Both the position numbers and the translations under genes were made by a program. The notes under the pieces were generated by a model that worked only from the letters and a program-made list of their open reading frames with translations, was not told the origin of the DNA and made no database searches. From an uncultured Methanosarcinales archaeon (GTDB lineage: Archaea > Halobacteriota > Methanosarcinia > Methanotrichales > Methanotrichaceae), in contig CAWJKV010000010.1 of the NCBI GenBank assembly GCA_963843555.1, positions 64,001 through 128,000 on the forward strand: a stretch of DNA of 64,000 nt, read 5' to 3'. This document shows positions 11,357 to 48,398 of this stretch, one piece after another. The first letter of the stretch is position 1; each line of letters begins with the position of its first letter.

Positions 11357-11719
11357 TCATACTCGATGTGTCGCTATGGTTATGCGCATGGTTGAATTCC
11401 CGGCAATATTCACCGTTGCCAACCCCTGGTGAGATACAACATTTGGCCGCGCCCGCTCCCATTTCGCAGTCAGTGTGTGCTCACCCATTTGTGCGATGTC
11501 CCCGACCCAGGCATGCCGTCCCAATCCGGCATTATAGGTGGTCGTGCCAATTGGCAGCGATGAATTGTCAAGGTATATTCTGGCGTTATTGACAGTCATT
11601 TTGTGTTCATCTACGACATAAATTACGCATTTTGTAGCGGCTGCACCGTTGGCCAGCAGCAGCATGGCCAACATTAAAATCAGGGATGCATTTCGAAATC
11701 TCATACCCATTAAAGGCAA
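11357..11719 (-). CDS. Secreted hypothetical protein (Ig/PEGA-like beta-rich)
   Basis: Signal peptide (ASLILMLAMLLLANGAAA), beta-strand-rich mature part. Confidence 0.6.
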   Translation of the reverse strand: MPLMGMRFRNASLILMLAMLLLANGAAATKCVIYVVDEHKMTVNNARIYLDNSSLPIGTTTYNAGLGRHAWVGDIAQMGEHTLTAKWERARPNVVSHQGLATVNIAGNSTMRITIATHRV

Positions 11720-11840
11720 TATTGGTACTTAAAGATTTTTGAATTTCATTCTTCCGTAACGAAGAAGGTTTGCCCGAGACAGATTCAGAATAAAACATAA
11801 TCTTTAATTGTTTAGAAGACAATAACAATCAGGGATTCAA

Positions 11841-12539
11841 ATGGCGACAAGGTACCCGGCACTATTGATACTGATTTTACTCCTGGCAGGAACTGCCACC
11901 CTCCTGGGCAGGGGAGAATTGGACATCTACACGACAGGCAGTGGACTAATGGGGCAGGTGGTTGATGTATCTGGAAGAGGCATATCTGGGGCCGGCATCT
12001 GGATAATTGGAAGCGAGGGCCAGGCCACTAACACCACCACCAATGCCACAGGCCACTATGGCATGAATGTGCCACCCGGAAACTACACCATAACGACGGC
12101 GCTTTCCGGATACAGCTTCACATCATCCGCGATGCAGGTTCGGACGGGCACGCTCGCCATCGCTCCGAGGATTACAGGCTATACTGCGGGCACAGTGGCC
12201 ACGGCGCCCATAATTCCCGCGGCCACTGCAGGCTTCGACCAGTATGGGCAGCCGTACACCACGGCCGGTGTGGGATGGGTCCAGGGCAGAGTAGTGGATC
12301 AGAGCGGTGCAGGCATACCTTCTGCAAGCATAACCGTAGATGGTTTCATGTCATCAGGCGCTACCGATGAGCAGGGAAATTACCGGCTTGCGCTTTCACC
12401 CGGATTGCACACAATTGATCCCATGAGTTCAGGCTACGGCATTCCTCCACGCGCGGTCTTCATCACATCCGGGGAGACGACCAATCTCGACATTACTGCA
12501 AAAAGGACTGTTGCTCTGGGAGAAGGACGCTTGCGATGA
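11841..12539 (+). CDS. Secreted protein with two carboxypeptidase-regulatory-like domains
   Basis: Signal peptide; two GxVVDxSGxGIxxA...TxxxGxY...PGxY/HTI repeats. Confidence 0.8.
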   Translation: MATRYPALLILILLLAGTATLLGRGELDIYTTGSGLMGQVVDVSGRGISGAGIWIIGSEGQATNTTTNATGHYGMNVPPGNYTITTALSGYSFTSSAMQVRTGTLAIAPRITGYTAGTVATAPIIPAATAGFDQYGQPYTTAGVGWVQGRVVDQSGAGIPSASITVDGFMSSGATDEQGNYRLALSPGLHTIDPMSSGYGIPPRAVFITSGETTNLDITAKRTVALGEGRLR

Positions 12540-12587
12540 AACTTTTGATTCATTGAGCGCGCGATGAATAAAAATGCAGATCAGGGA

Positions 12588-42906: not shown

Positions 42907-43411
42907 AGCCCTATTATATAATTGGATCATCGAATCAGATTTGTTGGCAAGGGCAGGCGAGTTCCTGTCCGCCACTTTTTTATGGCCTTTGCCTTGAAGA
43001 TGCTCAAAATAGAATCCAGCACCAAGTTTCGGAAAAAGTGGTCAATCCGGACGATGATCTTGTCAAGGCTCGTTCCTTGCATATTGATTTATGAAATGGC
43101 ACAGAGTTTTGGCCTTGTTTTTATTTAAAAAAGTTTTATAATCAGGTGGAAAGGTACTTATAATAGAAAATCTTATATCTATAGGTACCTAAATTTAGGG
43201 GGTTCATTGATTATCATAGGCTATTGACACGTAATTTTGGTGCCACGCTATTAAAATAATAGCTATAAGATCGAATATCATTCAACTTATAGTTATCGTA
43301 TTCAATCAATGTGGTAATATATCGAGGATTTTGGTTAGCGACCGAAACAGTGCTTGAAGAAGGAAATAGCGATCGATTGATTCATATGATGATTATCGGC
43401 CTGAACAATGG

Positions 43412-44908
43412 GTGGGTATTTTGATCGTAACTGCTTCACGGTATAATATATTAGTCCCTCTTAAAAGTGGAGGTTGTCTTGCCTACAACTCACTGAATGG
43501 TGGCATGGCACTATGGGAACCGCACGATCTCGAGATATTTGAAAGCATTAGAAGAGGGGTCACGATAGGAGAGACTGATGCCTCTCTGAAGGATTTAATC
43601 AATGGCGGTTTTGCATTTCCGGGATACGTAGACGAAGTTGAGGTTCTCGATCAGCAATACCGCAAGCATCGATTCGATCGCAGCACCATGATCCTCACCA
43701 TCGCCCCTACCGTTGGATGCAACTTTGGTTGTGATTACTGCTTCCAGGGTGAGAAAAAGAATGATGAATCAATGAGCAAAGATATACAGAATCGAATTGT
43801 TGGCCTTATAAAACGTGTATCCCCTGGGCTGAAGCGACTGCATGTGGCCTGGTATGGAGGCGAACCTCTGCTCAGGCTGAAGATAATCGAGAATCTGTCC
43901 GACCATTTCATCTCTTTTTGCGACGGTCACGCCATCCAATACGACTCAATGATGGTCACCAATGGATATCTTCTTCGCCCGAACGTGGCCAGATCTCTTC
44001 ATGTTCACCGGGTAAAGACGGTTCAGATCACCCTGGACGGACAGCAGATCTATCATGACTCCCGCAGGCCTCTGCTCTCAGGCGGGCCGACCTTTGATCA
44101 TATATTAAAGAATATTAAATCGGTAGTGGATGAGGTCCCCATCAATTTCAGCATCCGGGTGAACATCGATTCTCGCAACGTCGCAGGAATCCACGGGCTT
44201 ATCGAGAACCTGGCAGAGATGGGCCTGGGTAACAAGAGAAATTTTAAACTATATTTTGCACCCATAGAGGCGACAACTGAGGCATGTCATAGCATCGCCG
44301 GGGCATGTATGCCCAAGGGGGAATACGGCGCTCTGGAGGCCGACTTATACCGGCTCGGGTTCGAATCAGGTCTCACAGTTCTCCCCTATCCACCAAGGTT
44401 CAGAGGGAGCTGCGGGGCAGTCCGCCCCACGGGTCTGGTGCTGCTTCCTAATGGAGATATTCATAAGTGCTGGCACGCTGCAACAATCAAGGAAAGGCGT
44501 GTAGGTACCCTCTTTGATCTTGATGCTCTTAATCAGGATCAATTGCTGCGAGAGTGGCTGTTATGGAATCCTTTTGAGATCAGTGGTTGTCGGAACTGCA
44601 AAATCCTTCCCAATTGTGCAGGTGGCTGCGGGTATAAATTCCTTTATTCTGAGGATTCCAAGGGAGAAGGGGCAACTCTCCCGTGTATCAGCTGGAAGTA
44701 CAACATCAATGAGATGTTGATCCTCAGAGCAATAAAATTGGGAATTATTAATGCGGATGATTATGATCCGGCAGCCATAGCGACCGATGAATCGATGCTG
44801 CAAGTGGATCTGGAGCATTGCAGATCACTGATAACAACTGACCCAGAGTCAACGGCAACCTGCAATTTGGTGTCTGAATCAGAATGTGAAACTGTATCTC
44901 AGGTATGA
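43412..44908 (+). CDS. Radical SAM/SPASM domain peptide/protein maturase
   Basis: CNFGCDYC (CxxxCxxC), WYGGEP, SPASM GSCG...GDIHKC...CRNCKILPNCAGGC...C; N-terminal SRYN...YNSLNG RRE-like region. Confidence 0.92.
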   Translation: MGILIVTASRYNILVPLKSGGCLAYNSLNGGMALWEPHDLEIFESIRRGVTIGETDASLKDLINGGFAFPGYVDEVEVLDQQYRKHRFDRSTMILTIAPTVGCNFGCDYCFQGEKKNDESMSKDIQNRIVGLIKRVSPGLKRLHVAWYGGEPLLRLKIIENLSDHFISFCDGHAIQYDSMMVTNGYLLRPNVARSLHVHRVKTVQITLDGQQIYHDSRRPLLSGGPTFDHILKNIKSVVDEVPINFSIRVNIDSRNVAGIHGLIENLAEMGLGNKRNFKLYFAPIEATTEACHSIAGACMPKGEYGALEADLYRLGFESGLTVLPYPPRFRGSCGAVRPTGLVLLPNGDIHKCWHAATIKERRVGTLFDLDALNQDQLLREWLLWNPFEISGCRNCKILPNCAGGCGYKFLYSEDSKGEGATLPCISWKYNINEMLILRAIKLGIINADDYDPAAIATDESMLQVDLEHCRSLITTDPESTATCNLVSESECETVSQV

Positions 44909-44944
44909 TTCGTTTTATCAAAAATCTGAAAGAGGTGGAAAGAA

Positions 44945-46006
44945 ATGAAATATATTACGCAGCCTGTAATAGACGGTGCGACAAATTTCCCTGGACAGAA
45001 TGCCCAGAAGATGTACTCCGTGACATGCGTCAATAGTGGATTGGTGGCAAGCCTTAACGGCAATGCTGTGGAGCTGGTCCAGAAGAACTGGAAAGAAGAC
45101 CCGACTCAGCAGTGGAGGTTCGAGCCTCTATCAGGGCAAAACAGCGGCTACTATCGAATTGTCTCTATGGTGAACGGAAAAGTATTGAGCCTGCAAGGAG
45201 AAACAGACGTCATCGTTGATGCCTGGAAGGATGCTCCCTTGGGTCAATGGAAATTGATCAACCTGGGATATGGCAAGTTCAGGATAGAATCCAGGGCGAA
45301 TGGGGGAATTCTGGATGTCATGGGCTCATCCATGAGTGAGGGGGCAAAGATCAATCTTTATAAACCTGTGGCCAAGACCACCCTGAAGGCTGCCATCTAT
45401 GAGCACGCAAACTATCAAGGTCGAAGCCAGGAGCTGGGCCTGGGAAAATATGACATCAATCATCTCACGATAGGCAATGACGTTCTGAGTTCTCTCAAGG
45501 TGCCAAAAGGGTTAAAGGTCACCCTTTACGAGCACGCCGGCTTCCAGGGAAGGATCAAGAGCTTCACAGCGGATACCGCTTATGTGGGCAACGATTTCAA
45601 TGACATAACCTCGTCGATCGTGGTCGAAGAAGACGGAAAAAGCGTTACCATATATGAGCACGCCAATTATCAGGGAAGAAGTCAGATGCTGGGCGTCGGA
45701 AAGCATGATATGGGCAGTCTCTTCGCAAACGACATTTTGAGCTCCTTGAAAGTGCCCACCGGTTTCGTCGTCACGATCTTTGAGCATGCCGGCTTCCAGG
45801 GAAGGAGTAAGAGCTTCACGGCGGATACCGCTTATGTGGGCAACGATTTCAATGACATAACCTCCTCCATAGTTGTCGACTATAAAGAGGGCACCAGCCT
45901 CAGCCAGCAATGGATGCTTGCGGATATTGTTGTTAATAAACTAGAATCCACATACAACAAAAGCGCAATCATTTATGAACATGCAGTTAGTTCTATGTCG
46001 TGCTGA
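44945..46006 (+). CDS. Ricin-type beta-trefoil / beta-gamma-crystallin mosaic protein, C-terminally truncated
   Basis: QQW/GQW ricin repeats; four Greek-key motifs (YEHANYQG...NDVLSS, YEHAGFQG...NDITSS); ends just after the start of a further motif (AIIYEHA). Confidence 0.85.
   Translation: MKYITQPVIDGATNFPGQNAQKMYSVTCVNSGLVASLNGNAVELVQKNWKEDPTQQWRFEPLSGQNSGYYRIVSMVNGKVLSLQGETDVIVDAWKDAPLGQWKLINLGYGKFRIESRANGGILDVMGSSMSEGAKINLYKPVAKTTLKAAIYEHANYQGRSQELGLGKYDINHLTIGNDVLSSLKVPKGLKVTLYEHAGFQGRIKSFTADTAYVGNDFNDITSSIVVEEDGKSVTIYEHANYQGRSQMLGVGKHDMGSLFANDILSSLKVPTGFVVTIFEHAGFQGRSKSFTADTAYVGNDFNDITSSIVVDYKEGTSLSQQWMLADIVVNKLESTYNKSAIIYEHAVSSMSC
45388..45880 (+). repeat. Intragenic tandem duplication of two crystallin domains
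   Basis: Near-identical GAGCA(C/T)GCCGGCTTCCAGGGAAGG...GCGGATACCGCTTATGTGGGCAACGATTTCAATGACATAACCTC at about 45530-45612 and 45782-45864. Confidence 0.9.
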
Positions 46007-46932
46007 CATCGTTCCGAAATTTTGAGACTCTGCTGCCAAAGCTGGAAAGTGATCCCGTGAAGAACGGCATCAAGATATTCTATGAGGTAAAGACCAATCT
46101 CAATCGTCACCAGATCAAGGCTCTGGCGGATGCAGGCATCATTTACCTGCAGCCCGGGATTGAAAGCCTTTCCACTCACCTGTTGCAGCTCATGGGCAAA
46201 GGAACCACTACCATTCAGAACCTCTCTTTCTTGAAATGTTGCCGTGACTATGGAATTTTTGTCTTCTGGAATAACCTCATTCGTCTGCCTGGAGAGAAGG
46301 AAGGGGACTATTTGGAGATGGAGGACTTGATACCGAAGATACATCATCTCTACCCACCAAGCGGAGGCGCAAAAAAGGTCGAATGCCATCGTTTCAGTCC
46401 TTACTTCTCAGGAAGGGCGAAGGGAGCGGAGAATCCACGGCCTCTATCCTGGTACTCTGCCCTTTATCCTGAAGGAAAAATTGACCAAAATCGGGTTGCT
46501 TACTACTTCGATGCCGATTGGACGAATACATTAGGGGATGATGCCTATGAGAGCGTAATCTCAAAGACCGGAGAATGGCTCCAAATCTGGCAAAAGGAGA
46601 TGTTTTTGCCGGAATTGAGGTATCAACTTCAGGCGGACGGAAGTGCAATAGTACTCGATACCAGACAAGGCAATCCCAAAGAAATCAAGTTCGATATTCC
46701 TGAGGCTGGTGTTCTTCAGGCCATCGAGGAACCGGCGAATATTGATACAATCAGCCGAACCTTAGGAGATAGAGCACTTTCAAAAGATGCCGTCGAGGAT
46801 ATCTTGCAGGGTTTCATCGAGTCCAACCTGGCATTTAAAGAGAGGGGGAGATATCTGGGCCTCGCTCTTAAGCATAATGCTAAAGACCTTCCCCATTCCC
46901 TGCGCTGCGGCTTTCTTCCTCAGGAGTATTAG
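45990..46932 (+). pseudogene. 3' portion of a RiPP-maturation cobalamin-dependent radical SAM C-methyltransferase (B12 domain and CxxxCxxC missing)
   Basis: FETLLPKL, FYEVKTNL, QPGIESLS, LMGKG, QNL..LK, WN, PGE, HLYPP, RFSPYF, AYYF motifs typical of this family; no N-terminal half. Confidence 0.8.
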
Positions 46933-48398
46933 TTGCCCCTAAGAGGTTCGGAAATCTTTGTGCATCTCCCCAATGCTATCACTGCCCCAGTGCCAGCCTT
47001 TCCCAGCTCCTCGCGCAGCACCTGTTCCAACTCCTCCTCTGCCACGGGAAGCCCCAGCAAGCGCGTCGGCGCCAGCACCTCCAAAAGGGCAATGAGATCG
47101 GGCGCTTCCTGGCCGCCGGTCATGGCAGCCACCTCGTTCTTAAGCACGATTACCAGAACCTCTCGTTTCTGCCAGACGGCATTGATCAGGGCCTGCAAAC
47201 CCGAATGCGCCAGAGCATAGTCCCCTATAATGGCGATGCCTTTTTTCCGGAAACCTGAGGCCACGCCTATAGAAGAGCCCAGACCGTAGACCACATCCAC
47301 CGATTCGTAGGGCTCTCTTGTGGCGTGAATGGAACATCCCGCATCCCCGGCCACAGCCACATCCAAATTTTTCAGTGCTCGGAAGAGGGGAATAAAGGGG
47401 CAATCCGGGCAGACACCAGCATAGCCGCGCTCCGCCACTGTCTCATAAGCCTGCAGGCCCTTTTCCGGCTCTTCGTCCAGATTCTTCAGAGCCTGCACGA
47501 TATCCGCTTTCTCTACGAGCCCCCGGGGCAGGTGGCCGGTGAGCTTGCCCAACACTTTGGGGCTCATGCCGAGCTGTGACTCGATGAAAGGCTCCGGTTC
47601 CTCTGCGACCAGGATCAAGCGATGGTCCTCGATGAAGCGGCTGAGCATCTTTCGAGGCAGCGGATTGGTGTAGGCTATAGAAAGAAGTGAGACCCCCAAT
47701 TCCTCCGCCAGCGCGGCAGGAAAGCCGCTGGCGATGATTCCTACCTTTTGAGGATTTTCATCCCTGCAGACCTGCATCCGGTTCAGGTTAGTGGACTCGC
47801 TGGCCACTTCTGCCTTGACCAGGATCTGATCATGATGCCTCTGGTGGCGGCCCTGCATGGTAAGCTCCGGGCACGCCTTCTCAAAGGCCTGGCCCGTTCC
47901 GGGAGAAGGCCGCGGCTGAATTGGAGGGCCCTCCATAGACAGAAGGCGTGGCGTGACCCGGACGATGACCGGTATTCTGAGCGGCTCGGAAAGGGCGTAG
48001 GCCTCAAGGATAGAGGCATGAAGGTGCCCAGGAGATCTGGGATCAAGCACCGGCAGTTCGGCCAACGGTCCATAGAATCGGCTGTCCATCTCTGCCTGGG
48101 AGCGCCTGGGCCCCAGATCGTCGCCCGCAATTATAACCAGACCGGAACCAATGGTGTGCGTGGCCGAGATCACCATCGGGTCGGCGAGATTGTTCATGCC
48201 TACCTGCTTGACCAGGACCATGGAACGCAGGCCCGTCGCCGAACCGCCCAGAGCAATCTCCAGGGCTACCTTCTCATTTACTGAGATTTCCGCCTTCAGC
48301 GCTGCAGCGAGATCGGTTATGGGATAGCCGGGAACGTAGGTCCGAACCTTCGCCCCGGCATCATCTGCGGCTAAGAGTACGGCATCCTGACCGTTCAT
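46929..48398 (-). CDS. TPP-dependent IorA-like enzyme lacking the C-terminal ferredoxin domain
   Basis: PGYPIT, NEKVALE, KQVG, GDD...SQ, CPDCPF, GDAGC, IGDYALAHSG, MTGGQ. Confidence 0.85.
   Translation of the reverse strand: MNGQDAVLLAADDAGAKVRTYVPGYPITDLAAALKAEISVNEKVALEIALGGSATGLRSMVLVKQVGMNNLADPMVISATHTIGSGLVIIAGDDLGPRRSQAEMDSRFYGPLAELPVLDPRSPGHLHASILEAYALSEPLRIPVIVRVTPRLLSMEGPPIQPRPSPGTGQAFEKACPELTMQGRHQRHHDQILVKAEVASESTNLNRMQVCRDENPQKVGIIASGFPAALAEELGVSLLSIAYTNPLPRKMLSRFIEDHRLILVAEEPEPFIESQLGMSPKVLGKLTGHLPRGLVEKADIVQALKNLDEEPEKGLQAYETVAERGYAGVCPDCPFIPLFRALKNLDVAVAGDAGCSIHATREPYESVDVVYGLGSSIGVASGFRKKGIAIIGDYALAHSGLQALINAVWQKREVLVIVLKNEVAAMTGGQEAPDLIALLEVLAPTRLLGLPVAEEELEQVLREELGKAGTGAVIALGRCTKISEPLRGN

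What the first reader, a model, noticed from the sequence alone, without database searches (positions are those of the whole stretch)
43412..46932. Candidate archaeal protein-modification (RiPP-like) cassette: SPASM maturase + lectin/crystallin protein + B12 radical SAM methyltransferase
Seen: three co-oriented genes in an AT-richer block between serA and the mmp11 operon. They are a complete radical SAM/SPASM enzyme, a ricin-trefoil/beta-gamma-crystallin protein 36 nt downstream, and the 3' half of a RiPP-type cobalamin-dependent methyltransferase. No short Cys-rich precursor ORF is visible upstream. Known: SPASM enzymes form thioether or C-C crosslinks in peptides. From memory (unverified), one family, TIGR04463, is described as targeting Cys-rich regions of large proteins. 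Inference: the large sugar/Ca2+-binding protein is the substrate, or carries it on a now-missing tail, and two radical SAM enzymes tailor it. That would be a lectin-targeted modified protein in a methanogen, which I do not recognise as characterised.
Basis: partly seen in the sequence, partly recalled or inferred. Interest (0 to 1): 0.8.

Follow-up and report, generated by a model that had tools for sequence, protein, structure and literature searches.

The report
Broken lectin-tail crosslinking gene cluster
This is a damaged copy of a three-gene cluster, intact in related methanogens and several bacterial groups, in which two radical enzymes likely add sulfur crosslinks and methyl groups to the cysteine-rich tail of a large protein predicted to bind sugars and calcium; here the tail and half of the second enzyme are missing, possibly through an assembly error.

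Summary
The three genes are real. Gene 1 passes TIGR04463 and folds like CteB (RRE, radical SAM, SPASM). Gene 2 is a ricin/βγ-crystallin protein cut at 45984. Gene 3 is the 3′ half of a TIGR03975 B12 methyltransferase.

22 of 45 GTDB loci hold all three genes. About 2.5 kb is missing here. In its place sit 32–34 nt from the iorA end of the cassette-free allele, so the locus is a mosaic of two alleles: an assembly chimera (~55%) or a real lesion.

The system is not uncharacterised. CrpC, a TIGR04463 enzyme from Methanococcus voltae, was shown in 2026 to install thioethers, assigned as ranthionines, on a Cys-rich protein. That paper's supplement already lists a Methanothrix relative of this cluster.

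Not found in my searches: a conserved N-terminal tag (36 of 40 substrates, a likely RRE handle) separated from the tail by hundreds of residues of lectin cargo, and the untested methyltransferase partner. Verdict: new variant of a known kind; this copy is broken as assembled.

The parts
42951..42984 (+). serA terminator hairpin and T run; the left edge of the inserted block lies just behind it
   Evidence: hairpin 42951-42970. In cassette-free relatives this T run is followed directly, or within about 60 nt, by the iorA end.
43412..44908 (+). Intact radical SAM/SPASM maturase, TIGR04463 family: predicted RRE (aa 1-87), CxxxCxxC (C103, C107, C110), SPASM cysteines C334, C353, C393, C396, C402, C406, C425, plus invariant C292
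   Evidence: 554.3 bits, cut-off 525; cysteines invariant in 28 of 28; pLDDT 84.6; three strands then three helices at 12-87; CteB 5WHY Z 27.4, rmsd 4.1, 387 aligned, model 9-441.
44945..44965 (+). N-terminal tag MKYITQP of the substrate, the likely RRE-binding handle (inferred)
   Evidence: Motif at a possible start in 36 of 40 tail proteins against 44 of 1890 other ORFs (pattern written after seeing the data). Kept where the ricin domain or all cargo is absent. Lies before the first strand of the trefoil.
44945..45984 (+). 5' part (346 codons) of the substrate gene: ricin beta-trefoil (aa ~24-140), two beta-gamma-crystallin domains (aa ~149-313) set before the trefoil's closing QQW (aa 321-323), start of a third crystallin domain. 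No fascin-like part and no Cys-rich tail.
   Evidence: 64% identical to aa 1-356 of an 863-aa intact relative. A contig of run X1, 155 of 159 letters identical, continues in frame past 45984.
45985..46018 (.). 32-34 nt filler: the 3' end of iorA of the cassette-free allele (minus strand reads RNDVSTT-stop), standing where about 2.5 kb is missing
   Evidence: aligns at the iorA stop in 3 of 4 close relatives, above 200 of 200 shuffles; a 311-nt contig of run X2 reads terminator, filler, ~45 nt, iorA; 2524 nt missing relative to L026.
46019..46932 (+). 3' half of a cobalamin-dependent radical SAM C-methyltransferase (TIGR03975); lacks the B12-binding domain and the CX7CX2C motif
   Evidence: profile 324-606 of 606; 84-85% identical to the C-terminal half of the 605-aa P0241; motif in 37 of 37 homologues carrying RGCWWG, absent in the fragment.
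46929..47003 (-). Replacement 3' end of the iorA-like gene that came with the cassette
   Evidence: the four closest relatives match only from ~46996-47003 onward and end iorA differently; several more distant genomes of the genus match from ~46950.

Best explanation
This is a broken copy of a three-gene cluster in which an RRE-bearing SPASM radical SAM enzyme likely crosslinks, and a B12 radical SAM enzyme likely C-methylates, the Cys-every-fifth tail of a large ricin/crystallin/fascin-like protein; in this assembly the tail and the front half of the methyltransferase are missing.

Proposed steps in the intact system:
1. The RRE binds the N-terminal M-x-[FY]-[ILV]-[VT]-x-P tag (inferred, ~60%).
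2. The enzyme works along the ~150-180-residue tail, hundreds of residues away, and joins each Cys sulfur to a side-chain carbon of the residue three places on, mostly Asp, Ala or Asn (ranthionine type; inferred from CrpC/CrpA, ~80% for thioethers). This would give a string of small non-overlapping rings.
3. The TIGR03975 enzyme adds C-beta methyls to tail residues, perhaps the Val/Ile-rich end (inferred, ~60%; site unknown).
4. The protein is probably not cleaved and stays whole: a Ca2+- and glycan-binding head on a stiff, hydrophobic crosslinked stalk (~65%). My preferred role is a surface or coat adhesin/scaffold (~35%).

The lesion is a mosaic of a cassette-bearing and a cassette-free allele (shown). 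An assembly chimera from a mixed population is slightly more likely (~55%) than a real lesion.
For: Family and fold.

Intact architecture: L026, L027, L033 (Methanothrix) and many bacterial loci. 8 of 8 full-length substrate entries tested pass NF038108 CefA, two of them forms of one ORF. Ricin, crystallin and FRG1/fascin domains.

Co-occurrence in 45 GTDB loci: tail ORF 40, lectin+tail 26, close TIGR03975 27, all three 22. 22 of the 26 lectin+tail loci have the methyltransferase.

Tail grammar: Cys spacing 5 (595 times) or 10 (204 times); residue i+3 is D 358, A 345, N 84, E 54, Q 19 of 886. CrpA's repeats carry C-X-X-Q/D, and its modified motifs include CAVD and PCAGD.

Tag: 36 of 40 against 44 of 1890. 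In CrpA the predicted RRE recognition sequence is also the extreme N-terminus.

Methyltransferase: CX7CX2C in 37 of 37, the motif of the PoyB/PoyC-type C-beta methylases.

No cleavage or export gear: a double-glycine leader appears only in 5 non-lectin substrates; no protease or transporter recurs across the lectin-type loci.

Mosaic. Run X2 holds both allele types. The retained pieces carry no further stop or frameshift.
Against: No biochemistry exists for any lectin-type member. The window's genome holds no tail and no methyltransferase N-half anywhere (82% complete), so as assembled nothing can be modified.

CrpA's N-terminus does not carry this tag, CrpC's sequence was not compared directly, and deleting CrpC's RRE or CrpA's N-domain did not fully abolish processing. 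The tag pattern was defined after the fact; 4 of 40 lack it and 5 of the 36 hits are internal starts.

4 of 26 lectin+tail loci lack a TIGR03975 gene (L042, L050, L066, L068), so methylation is dispensable. Two lectin-type loci (L042, L047) hold an ORF that groups with the C39/ABC transporter cluster (not examined).

No signal peptide is evident by eye or by a crude hydropathy scan, so how a surface protein would leave the cell is unexplained. I can name no assembler behaviour that gives exactly this mosaic, and the source reads were not available (best holder 0.14 of words).
Confidence: 0.7

Rival explanations
1. The break is real. Two illegitimate joints between the cassette allele and the empty allele left a recent pseudogene pair beside an orphaned but intact maturase.
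For: The contig is gap-free (no N). The insertions are 3.0 kb and 1.0 kb, large for a polishing error. The right joint shows a short homeologous stretch between filler and methyltransferase gene. No ~94% identical full-length substrate turned up in the longer-protein search, although a 94% maturase exists.
Against: It needs both alleles in one cell and two rare joints. The filler starts where the two alleles diverge. No other decay is seen. A ~97% identical strain continues the substrate gene intact. No laid contig from the six runs showed the window's joints, though cover was thin.
Confidence: 0.45
2. The lectin domains act as an oversized leader or carrier. The modified tail is cut off and works as a free RiPP.
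For: Relatives L056-L060 carry the same kind of tail behind a double-glycine motif beside a C39-type ABC transporter. A Gly/Ser/Ala-rich linker precedes the tail in lectin types.
Against: None of the lectin-type substrates has the double-glycine leader pattern. No protease recurs. Cargo of 300-1000 residues with shuffled binding domains is costly for a disposable leader. CrpA is reported as a modified whole protein.
Confidence: 0.2
3. The whole modified protein is a lectin-aimed antagonist: the sugar-binding domains dock on a target cell and the methylated, hydrophobic tail inserts into its membrane.
For: The tail end is hydrophobic (mean Kyte-Doolittle 1.0-1.55 over the last 25 residues in 8 of 8 tested). 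The methyltransferase is of the polytheonamide type. Cargo domains vary like aiming modules. One tail is fused to DUF4280. Myxobacteria are frequent hosts.
Against: No recurring immunity, export or epimerase gene. The tail carries many Asp residues. No activity data.
Confidence: 0.25
4. The tail is a metal- or mineral-binding array (thioethers plus Asp carboxylates and free Cys), as suggested for CrpA, and the lectin head only localises it.
For: The Crp genes are up-regulated on pyrite and the authors suggest metal binding. The same CxxD grammar is present.
Against: Thioether formation uses up the thiols that would bind metal best. No metal-transport gene recurs. Hosts include aerobes and phototrophs.
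Confidence: 0.25
5. The maturase acts on a separate small precursor peptide and the lectin gene is a bystander.
For: Some TIGR04463 loci have short precursors without lectin domains (L053, L054, L062).
Against: In 26 of 45 loci the Cys-rich tail is part of the lectin ORF. No precursor upstream. No Cys-every-fifth Ala/Gly run in any frame of the genome. The one weak CefA hit in G000 is the antisense reading of a pentapeptide repeat.
Confidence: 0.03

Closest known systems
Crp cluster of Methanococcus voltae (CrpA/CrpB/CrpC; Dieter et al. 2026, PMC13692751)
   Same: TIGR04463 enzyme with RRE and a seven-Cys SPASM domain; neighbouring protein with C-terminal Cys repeats of CxxD type ending in a hydrophobic, Pro-containing terminus; N-terminal recognition; methanogen host.
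   Different: CrpA is 298 aa with one small N-domain. Here the substrate is 475-1213 aa with ricin, crystallin, fascin-like and sometimes propeller domains, has a different N-terminal tag, and sits beside a TIGR03975 methyltransferase, which the three-gene Crp cluster does not list. The window copy has lost the tail.
NCBIfam TIGR04463 (rSAM_vs_C_rich) and NF038108 CefA / NF038107 CefB
   Same: The maturase passes TIGR04463. [quoted passage not shown]
   Different: The maturase fails CefB (223 of 600 bits). CefA is a 65-position peptide model; here the motif is the tail of a large multidomain protein.
Ranthipeptide synthases CteB and PapB, and QhpD/QhpC
   Same: Best structural match is CteB (5WHY, Z 27.4, RRE included). 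QhpD also puts Cys-Asp/Glu thioethers into a protein.
   Different: Sequence identity is 15-17%; PapB model 105.7 of 340 bits. Their substrates are short peptides or a small enzyme subunit, with no lectin cargo.
PoyB/PoyC-type B12 radical SAM C-methyltransferases (TIGR03975)
   Same: Intact relatives score 594 of 281.85 bits and carry CX7CX2C.
   Different: Paired here with a thioether synthase and a whole protein rather than a proteusin precursor and epimerase; target residue unknown; the window copy is a catalytically incomplete half.
Microbial beta-gamma-crystallins (clostrillin, Myxococcus protein S, M-crystallin) and ricin-B lectins
   Same: Sequence and fold matches; four N/D-N/D-x-x-S/T-S sites in the fragment (the motif's link to Ca2+ binding is recalled).
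   Different: No radical SAM tailoring of such proteins was found in my searches; binding was not tested here.

Membership tests
TIGR04463 maturase | Score above the curated cut-off | tested here: met
   554.3 against 525 bits, profile 1-438 of 438
TIGR04463 maturase | CxxxCxxC plus seven SPASM cysteines | tested here: met
   C103/107/110 and C334, 353, 393, 396, 402, 406, 425 invariant in 28 of 28; CrpC has seven
TIGR04463 maturase | N-terminal RRE domain | tested here: met
   Predicted three strands plus three helices at aa 12-87; model 9-441 aligns to CteB 1-448. A prediction, not a solved structure.
Crp-type system (protein ranthionine installation) | Adjacent protein with a Cys-rich C-terminal repeat region, in the window | tested here: not met
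   The window protein has 2 Cys; no tail anywhere in G000
Crp-type system (protein ranthionine installation) | Adjacent protein with a Cys-rich C-terminal repeat region, in intact relatives | tested here: met
   40 of 45 loci have a tail ORF; 26 of 45 have it fused to lectin/crystallin domains
Crp-type system (protein ranthionine installation) | CxxD/Q-type acceptor motif | tested here: met
   i+3 is D, N, E or Q in 515 of 886 Cys positions and A in 345; relatives only
Crp-type system (protein ranthionine installation) | Enzymatic S-to-non-alpha-carbon thioether formation | not testable with these tools
   Needs co-expression and mass spectrometry
Crp-type system (protein ranthionine installation) | RRE engagement of the substrate N-terminus | tested here: inconclusive
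Crp-type system (protein ranthionine installation) | Ranthisynthase-like catalytic-proximity residues | not tested
   The six positions are in a figure that could not be read
NF038108 CefA | Score above 30 bits | tested here: met
   8 of 8 full-length substrate entries, 30.2-91.1 bits; the window fragment has no NCBIfam hit
NF038107 CefB and TIGR04334 Clo7bot maturases | Score above 600 bits | tested here: not met
   223.4 and 263.4 bits
TIGR03975 B12 C-methyltransferase | Full-length match with B12-binding domain and CX7CX2C, in the window | tested here: not met
   261.9 against 281.85 bits, positions 324-606 only; motif absent
TIGR03975 B12 C-methyltransferase | The same, in intact relatives | tested here: met
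   L021 enzyme 594.3 bits, with a B12-binding hit below the Pfam cut-off; CX7CX2C in 37 of 37
Classical exported RiPP (double-glycine leader, C39 transporter) | Double-glycine leader before the core and a recurring peptidase/transporter | tested here: not met
   Pattern in 5 of 40 substrates, all non-lectin; transporter cluster in 8 of 45 loci, 2 of them lectin-type and not examined

The most novel reading that the evidence does not exclude
A distinct class of 'cargo-inserted' RiPP-like proteins. A 5-7-residue N-terminal tag recruits the RRE across 300-1000 residues of shuffled lectin, crystallin and fascin-like domains. Two radical SAM enzymes then turn a ~170-residue tail into a string of up to 25-30 thioether rings with added C-methyls, giving an uncleaved, glycan-aimed crosslinked rod. 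It is shared by methanogens, cyanobacteria, myxobacteria, clostridia and Chloroflexota, and the tag plus tail would work as a portable module on any folded protein.
Probability: 0.35. Interest if true: 0.75.

Novelty: new variant of a known kind. Interest (0 to 1): 0.45.

Why it matters
RiPP-type radical chemistry on full-size proteins has few verified cases; PMC13692751 names QHNDH, MCR, the E. coli ribosome and now CrpA. The lectin-type clusters would extend it to 50-125 kDa multidomain proteins with two cooperating radical SAM enzymes. They supply a concrete, testable recognition tag and a cultured host (Ruminiclostridium sufflavum DSM 19573, L046). If tag and tail are portable, they offer a way to attach a heavily crosslinked rod to a chosen protein. 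The window copy adds little beyond pointing to the family, and it warns that a gap-free MAG contig can be a mosaic of two alleles.

Tried and rejected
- Filler as IS end or att site: it has a 5-bp inverted repeat, but no second copy in the genome and none within 3 mismatches in 104 other genomes. It proved to be an iorA end.
- Missing half elsewhere in the genome: none.
- Other CefA hits in the order (9 of 105 over cut-off). I inspected 6 loci (G000's weak hit and G005, G014, G029, G067, G088); all are off-frame or antisense readings of short repeats. G057's summed hit was not inspected.
- G014's 36% maturase has no tail or methyltransferase among ORFs of 100 aa or more nearby; treated as unrelated.
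- TIGR03975 over cut-off in the four closest genomes: 0 of 4.
- RRE-tag complex prediction: tool not available, no result. Cluster-member look-up: could not be made.
- Expression: no RNA holder listed; no evidence either way.
- Laying contigs: six of seven runs were laid (X5 not); cover is patchy, so absence of the window's joints proves nothing.
- The fold model did not place the closing QQW strand into the trefoil (pLDDT under 50 from aa 316). The domain-insertion reading rests on the alignment only.
- The careful tree did not finish; the quick tree is unrooted, so donor and direction are not shown.
- Earlier scan findings: none.
- Literature searches: TIGR04463 gave 1 paper. CefA terms gave 323 papers holding at least one term; the 20 listed were unrelated. 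Radical SAM+SPASM+crystallin+RiPP gave 3 (2 listed, reviews, not opened). TIGR03975 gave 3 (2 listed, metagenome surveys, not opened). Searches gave 0. The library lacks most subscription journals.
Full report
1. Observation. Gene 1 passes TIGR04463 (554.3 against 525 bits) and fails Clo7bot and CefB. Its radical SAM and SPASM cysteines are invariant in 28 of 28 aligned relatives. Its model (pLDDT 84.6) starts with an RRE-type fold and matches CteB best, over residues 9-441 (Z 27.4, rmsd 4.1, 387 aligned). Gene 2 has a ricin trefoil and two crystallin domains, only 2 Cys, and four N/D-N/D-x-x-S/T-S sites (their meaning as Ca2+ sites is recalled). Gene 3 matches only the last 283 positions of TIGR03975 and lacks the CX7CX2C motif. 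The host is likely a Methanothrix: the closest named maturases are from that genus.

2. The intact system. In the host's family, 3 of 104 other genomes hold a maturase of 64-71% identity. In the loci fetched from them, and in the named loci L026, L027 and L033, the order is maturase, an 817-870-aa substrate, and one or two full TIGR03975 genes. The substrate continues past the window's break with more crystallin, FRG1/fascin-like trefoils and a Cys/Ala/Gly tail that passes the CefA model in 8 of 8 entries tested, two of them forms of one ORF. Of 45 GTDB loci caught by two conserved peptide patterns, 40 have a tail ORF within 6 kb, 26 have it fused to lectin/crystallin domains, 27 have a close TIGR03975 gene, and 22 have all three. 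Four loci have very short flanks on a relevant side, at least one (L045) is frameshifted and counted as a miss, and the loci are related, so these are not independent draws. Hosts include cyanobacteria, myxobacteria, Bacillota, Chloroflexota, Actinomycetota and proteobacteria. No other gene family recurs in the lectin-type loci; a transporter cluster occurs in 8 of 45 loci, 5 of them the non-lectin group L056-L060. A quick tree (58 rows; one duplicate and the partial rows, L033 among them, left out) puts the window, two named Methanothrix rows and three unnamed rows in one group (support 99) beside Bacillota (94) among bacteria. A bacterial origin is plausible but untested.

3. Substrate grammar. 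In the last 170 residues of 40 tail proteins from 39 loci (L032 left out as cut by its contig end), Cys is spaced by 5 (595 times) or 10 (204 times). The residue three places on is D 358, A 345, N 84, E 54, Q 19 of 886. Most lectin-type tails end in a near-constant hydrophobic stretch, CPADACAADACAIDIIPIIPGI or close. At the other end, 36 of 40 carry x-[KRQEN]-[FYV]-[ILVT]-[VTDSI] at a possible start codon, against 44 of 1890 other ORFs. I wrote the pattern after seeing the sequences; 5 hits are internal starts, and L028, L035, L055 and L062 miss. The tag is kept when the ricin domain is absent (L038, L041, L046, L061) and when there is no cargo at all (L053, L054), so it is not part of the lectin fold. 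The window has it (MKYITQP), ahead of the first trefoil strand. A double-glycine leader pattern occurs only in L056-L060.

4. The lesion. About 2524 nt are missing relative to L026, and none of it lies elsewhere in the genome (82% complete). A contig of run X1 matches the window at 155 of 159 letters up to 45984 and runs on in the crystallin frame; another starts matching at 46019. A 605-aa methyltransferase 85% identical to the fragment exists. The 32-34 nt between the breaks are not random. Of the 29 other-genome iorA loci fetched, 4 have serA beside iorA. In 3 of these the gap is 136-204 nt, and the filler aligns at the iorA stop (24 of 31 and 23 of 30 identical in two of them; above 200 of 200 shuffles in all three). 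In the fourth, which holds another 1.2-kb insert, it does not (126 of 200). A 311-nt contig of run X2 reads serA terminator, filler, ~45 nt, iorA, and the same run holds cassette pieces at 93-99% identity. So the window is serA, cassette left part, empty-allele iorA end, cassette right part, iorA. Mixed populations exist and the retained pieces show no other decay, which favours an assembly chimera (~55%). Against it, the contig is gap-free, I can name no assembler step that gives this pattern, and no near-identical full-length substrate was found. Source reads were not available.

5. Mechanism. Shown: families, architecture, co-occurrence, tail grammar, tag conservation, the mosaic. Inferred from CrpC/CrpA: RRE binding of the N-terminus and Cys-to-i+3 thioethers (~80% for thioethers, ~60% for the tag). 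Inferred from the PoyB/PoyC type: C-beta methylation in the tail (~60%); it is dispensable in 4 of 26 lectin loci. Inferred from the lack of cleavage gear: a whole protein (~65%). The biological role is weakly constrained. I favour a Ca2+/glycan-binding surface or coat protein on a rigid stalk (~35%) over a lectin-aimed antagonist (~25%) or a metal-binding array (~25%). The lack of an evident signal peptide is unexplained for any outside role. As assembled, the window copy can do none of this.

6. What is known. PMC13692751 (seen: abstract, Introduction, Results sections 8, 12, 13, Discussion, term passages; supplementary file 2 in full with cells over 400 characters cut; files 1-3 searched by term; figures not seen, and Figures S3 and S25 may bear on these claims) shows that CrpC, a TIGR04463 enzyme of Methanococcus voltae, installs thioethers assigned as ranthionines on the 298-aa CrpA. 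Its data set lists RQW80219.1 (Methanothrix, 870 aa, locus tag EHM14_05745, the same tag as P0132) with TIGR04463 and two TIGR03975 neighbours as a hypothetical protein, along with LysM-fused and other relatives. The words crystallin and ricin occur in neither main text nor supplements. PMC5682303 and PMC2929430 were seen as term passages only; other papers as search listings only. Searches found no description of the lectin-type architecture or the tag; the library lacks most subscription journals. The wording of the TIGR04463 curator comment, the ricin QxW motif, the coat role of protein S and the PAAR-like nature of DUF4280 are recalled, not from calls.

7. Verdict. The chemistry has a published precedent in a methanogen and the cluster is already listed in a supplement, so this is a new variant of a known kind, seen here as a broken or mis-assembled copy. 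What is worth following is the family: the N-terminal tag far from the core, the shuffled lectin cargo, and the methyltransferase partner. Interest 0.45; the boldest reading has probability 0.35 and would deserve 0.75.

Noticed in passing
window 42985-47003; L074 280-1500: The serA-iorA gap takes different inserts: the cassette here, an unrelated 278-aa membrane-type ORF in G080, nothing in G073, G076 and G081. The iorA C-terminus differs with the insert.
   Followed up: partly
window 45389-45913; L026, L027, L033: In the window and both L026 substrates two crystallin domains sit before the ricin trefoil's closing QQW, in L027 one, in L033 and most bacteria none: an apparent domain insertion into a trefoil loop. 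The fold model did not confirm it.
   Followed up: partly
L055 11501-12484: In Polyangium jinanense the Cys-rich tail is fused to DUF4280 (recalled as PAAR-like) and lacks the N-terminal tag, beside both enzymes.
   Followed up: no
L056-L060, about 11500-12540: A marine alphaproteobacterial/verrucomicrobial subgroup has the same tail behind a ~170-aa N-domain and a double-glycine motif, with a C39-type ABC transporter, an outer-membrane channel-like gene and a polyketide synthase-like gene nearby; probably an exported-peptide version.
   Followed up: no
L026 16514-20152; L027 4775-8726: One Methanothrix locus has two substrate genes (the second with an extra N-terminal lectin propeller and an internal tag); another has two tandem TIGR03975 genes and a tail with a run of 32 Cys spaced by five.
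   Followed up: partly
L015 3-977: A metagenome tail with a run of 36 Cys ends like CrpA, beside a maturase 40% identical to the window's; a likely stand-in for the CrpC-like branch.
   Followed up: no
window 46951: A run X1 contig has one more A here, which would shift the last codons of the iorA-like gene; variant or homopolymer error.
   Followed up: no
L102, L105, L107, L108, L109, L112: The CefA model rings over or near its cut-off on antisense or off-frame readings of 15-base and pentapeptide repeats in Methanotrichaceae, a source of false calls in six-frame searches.
   Followed up: yes
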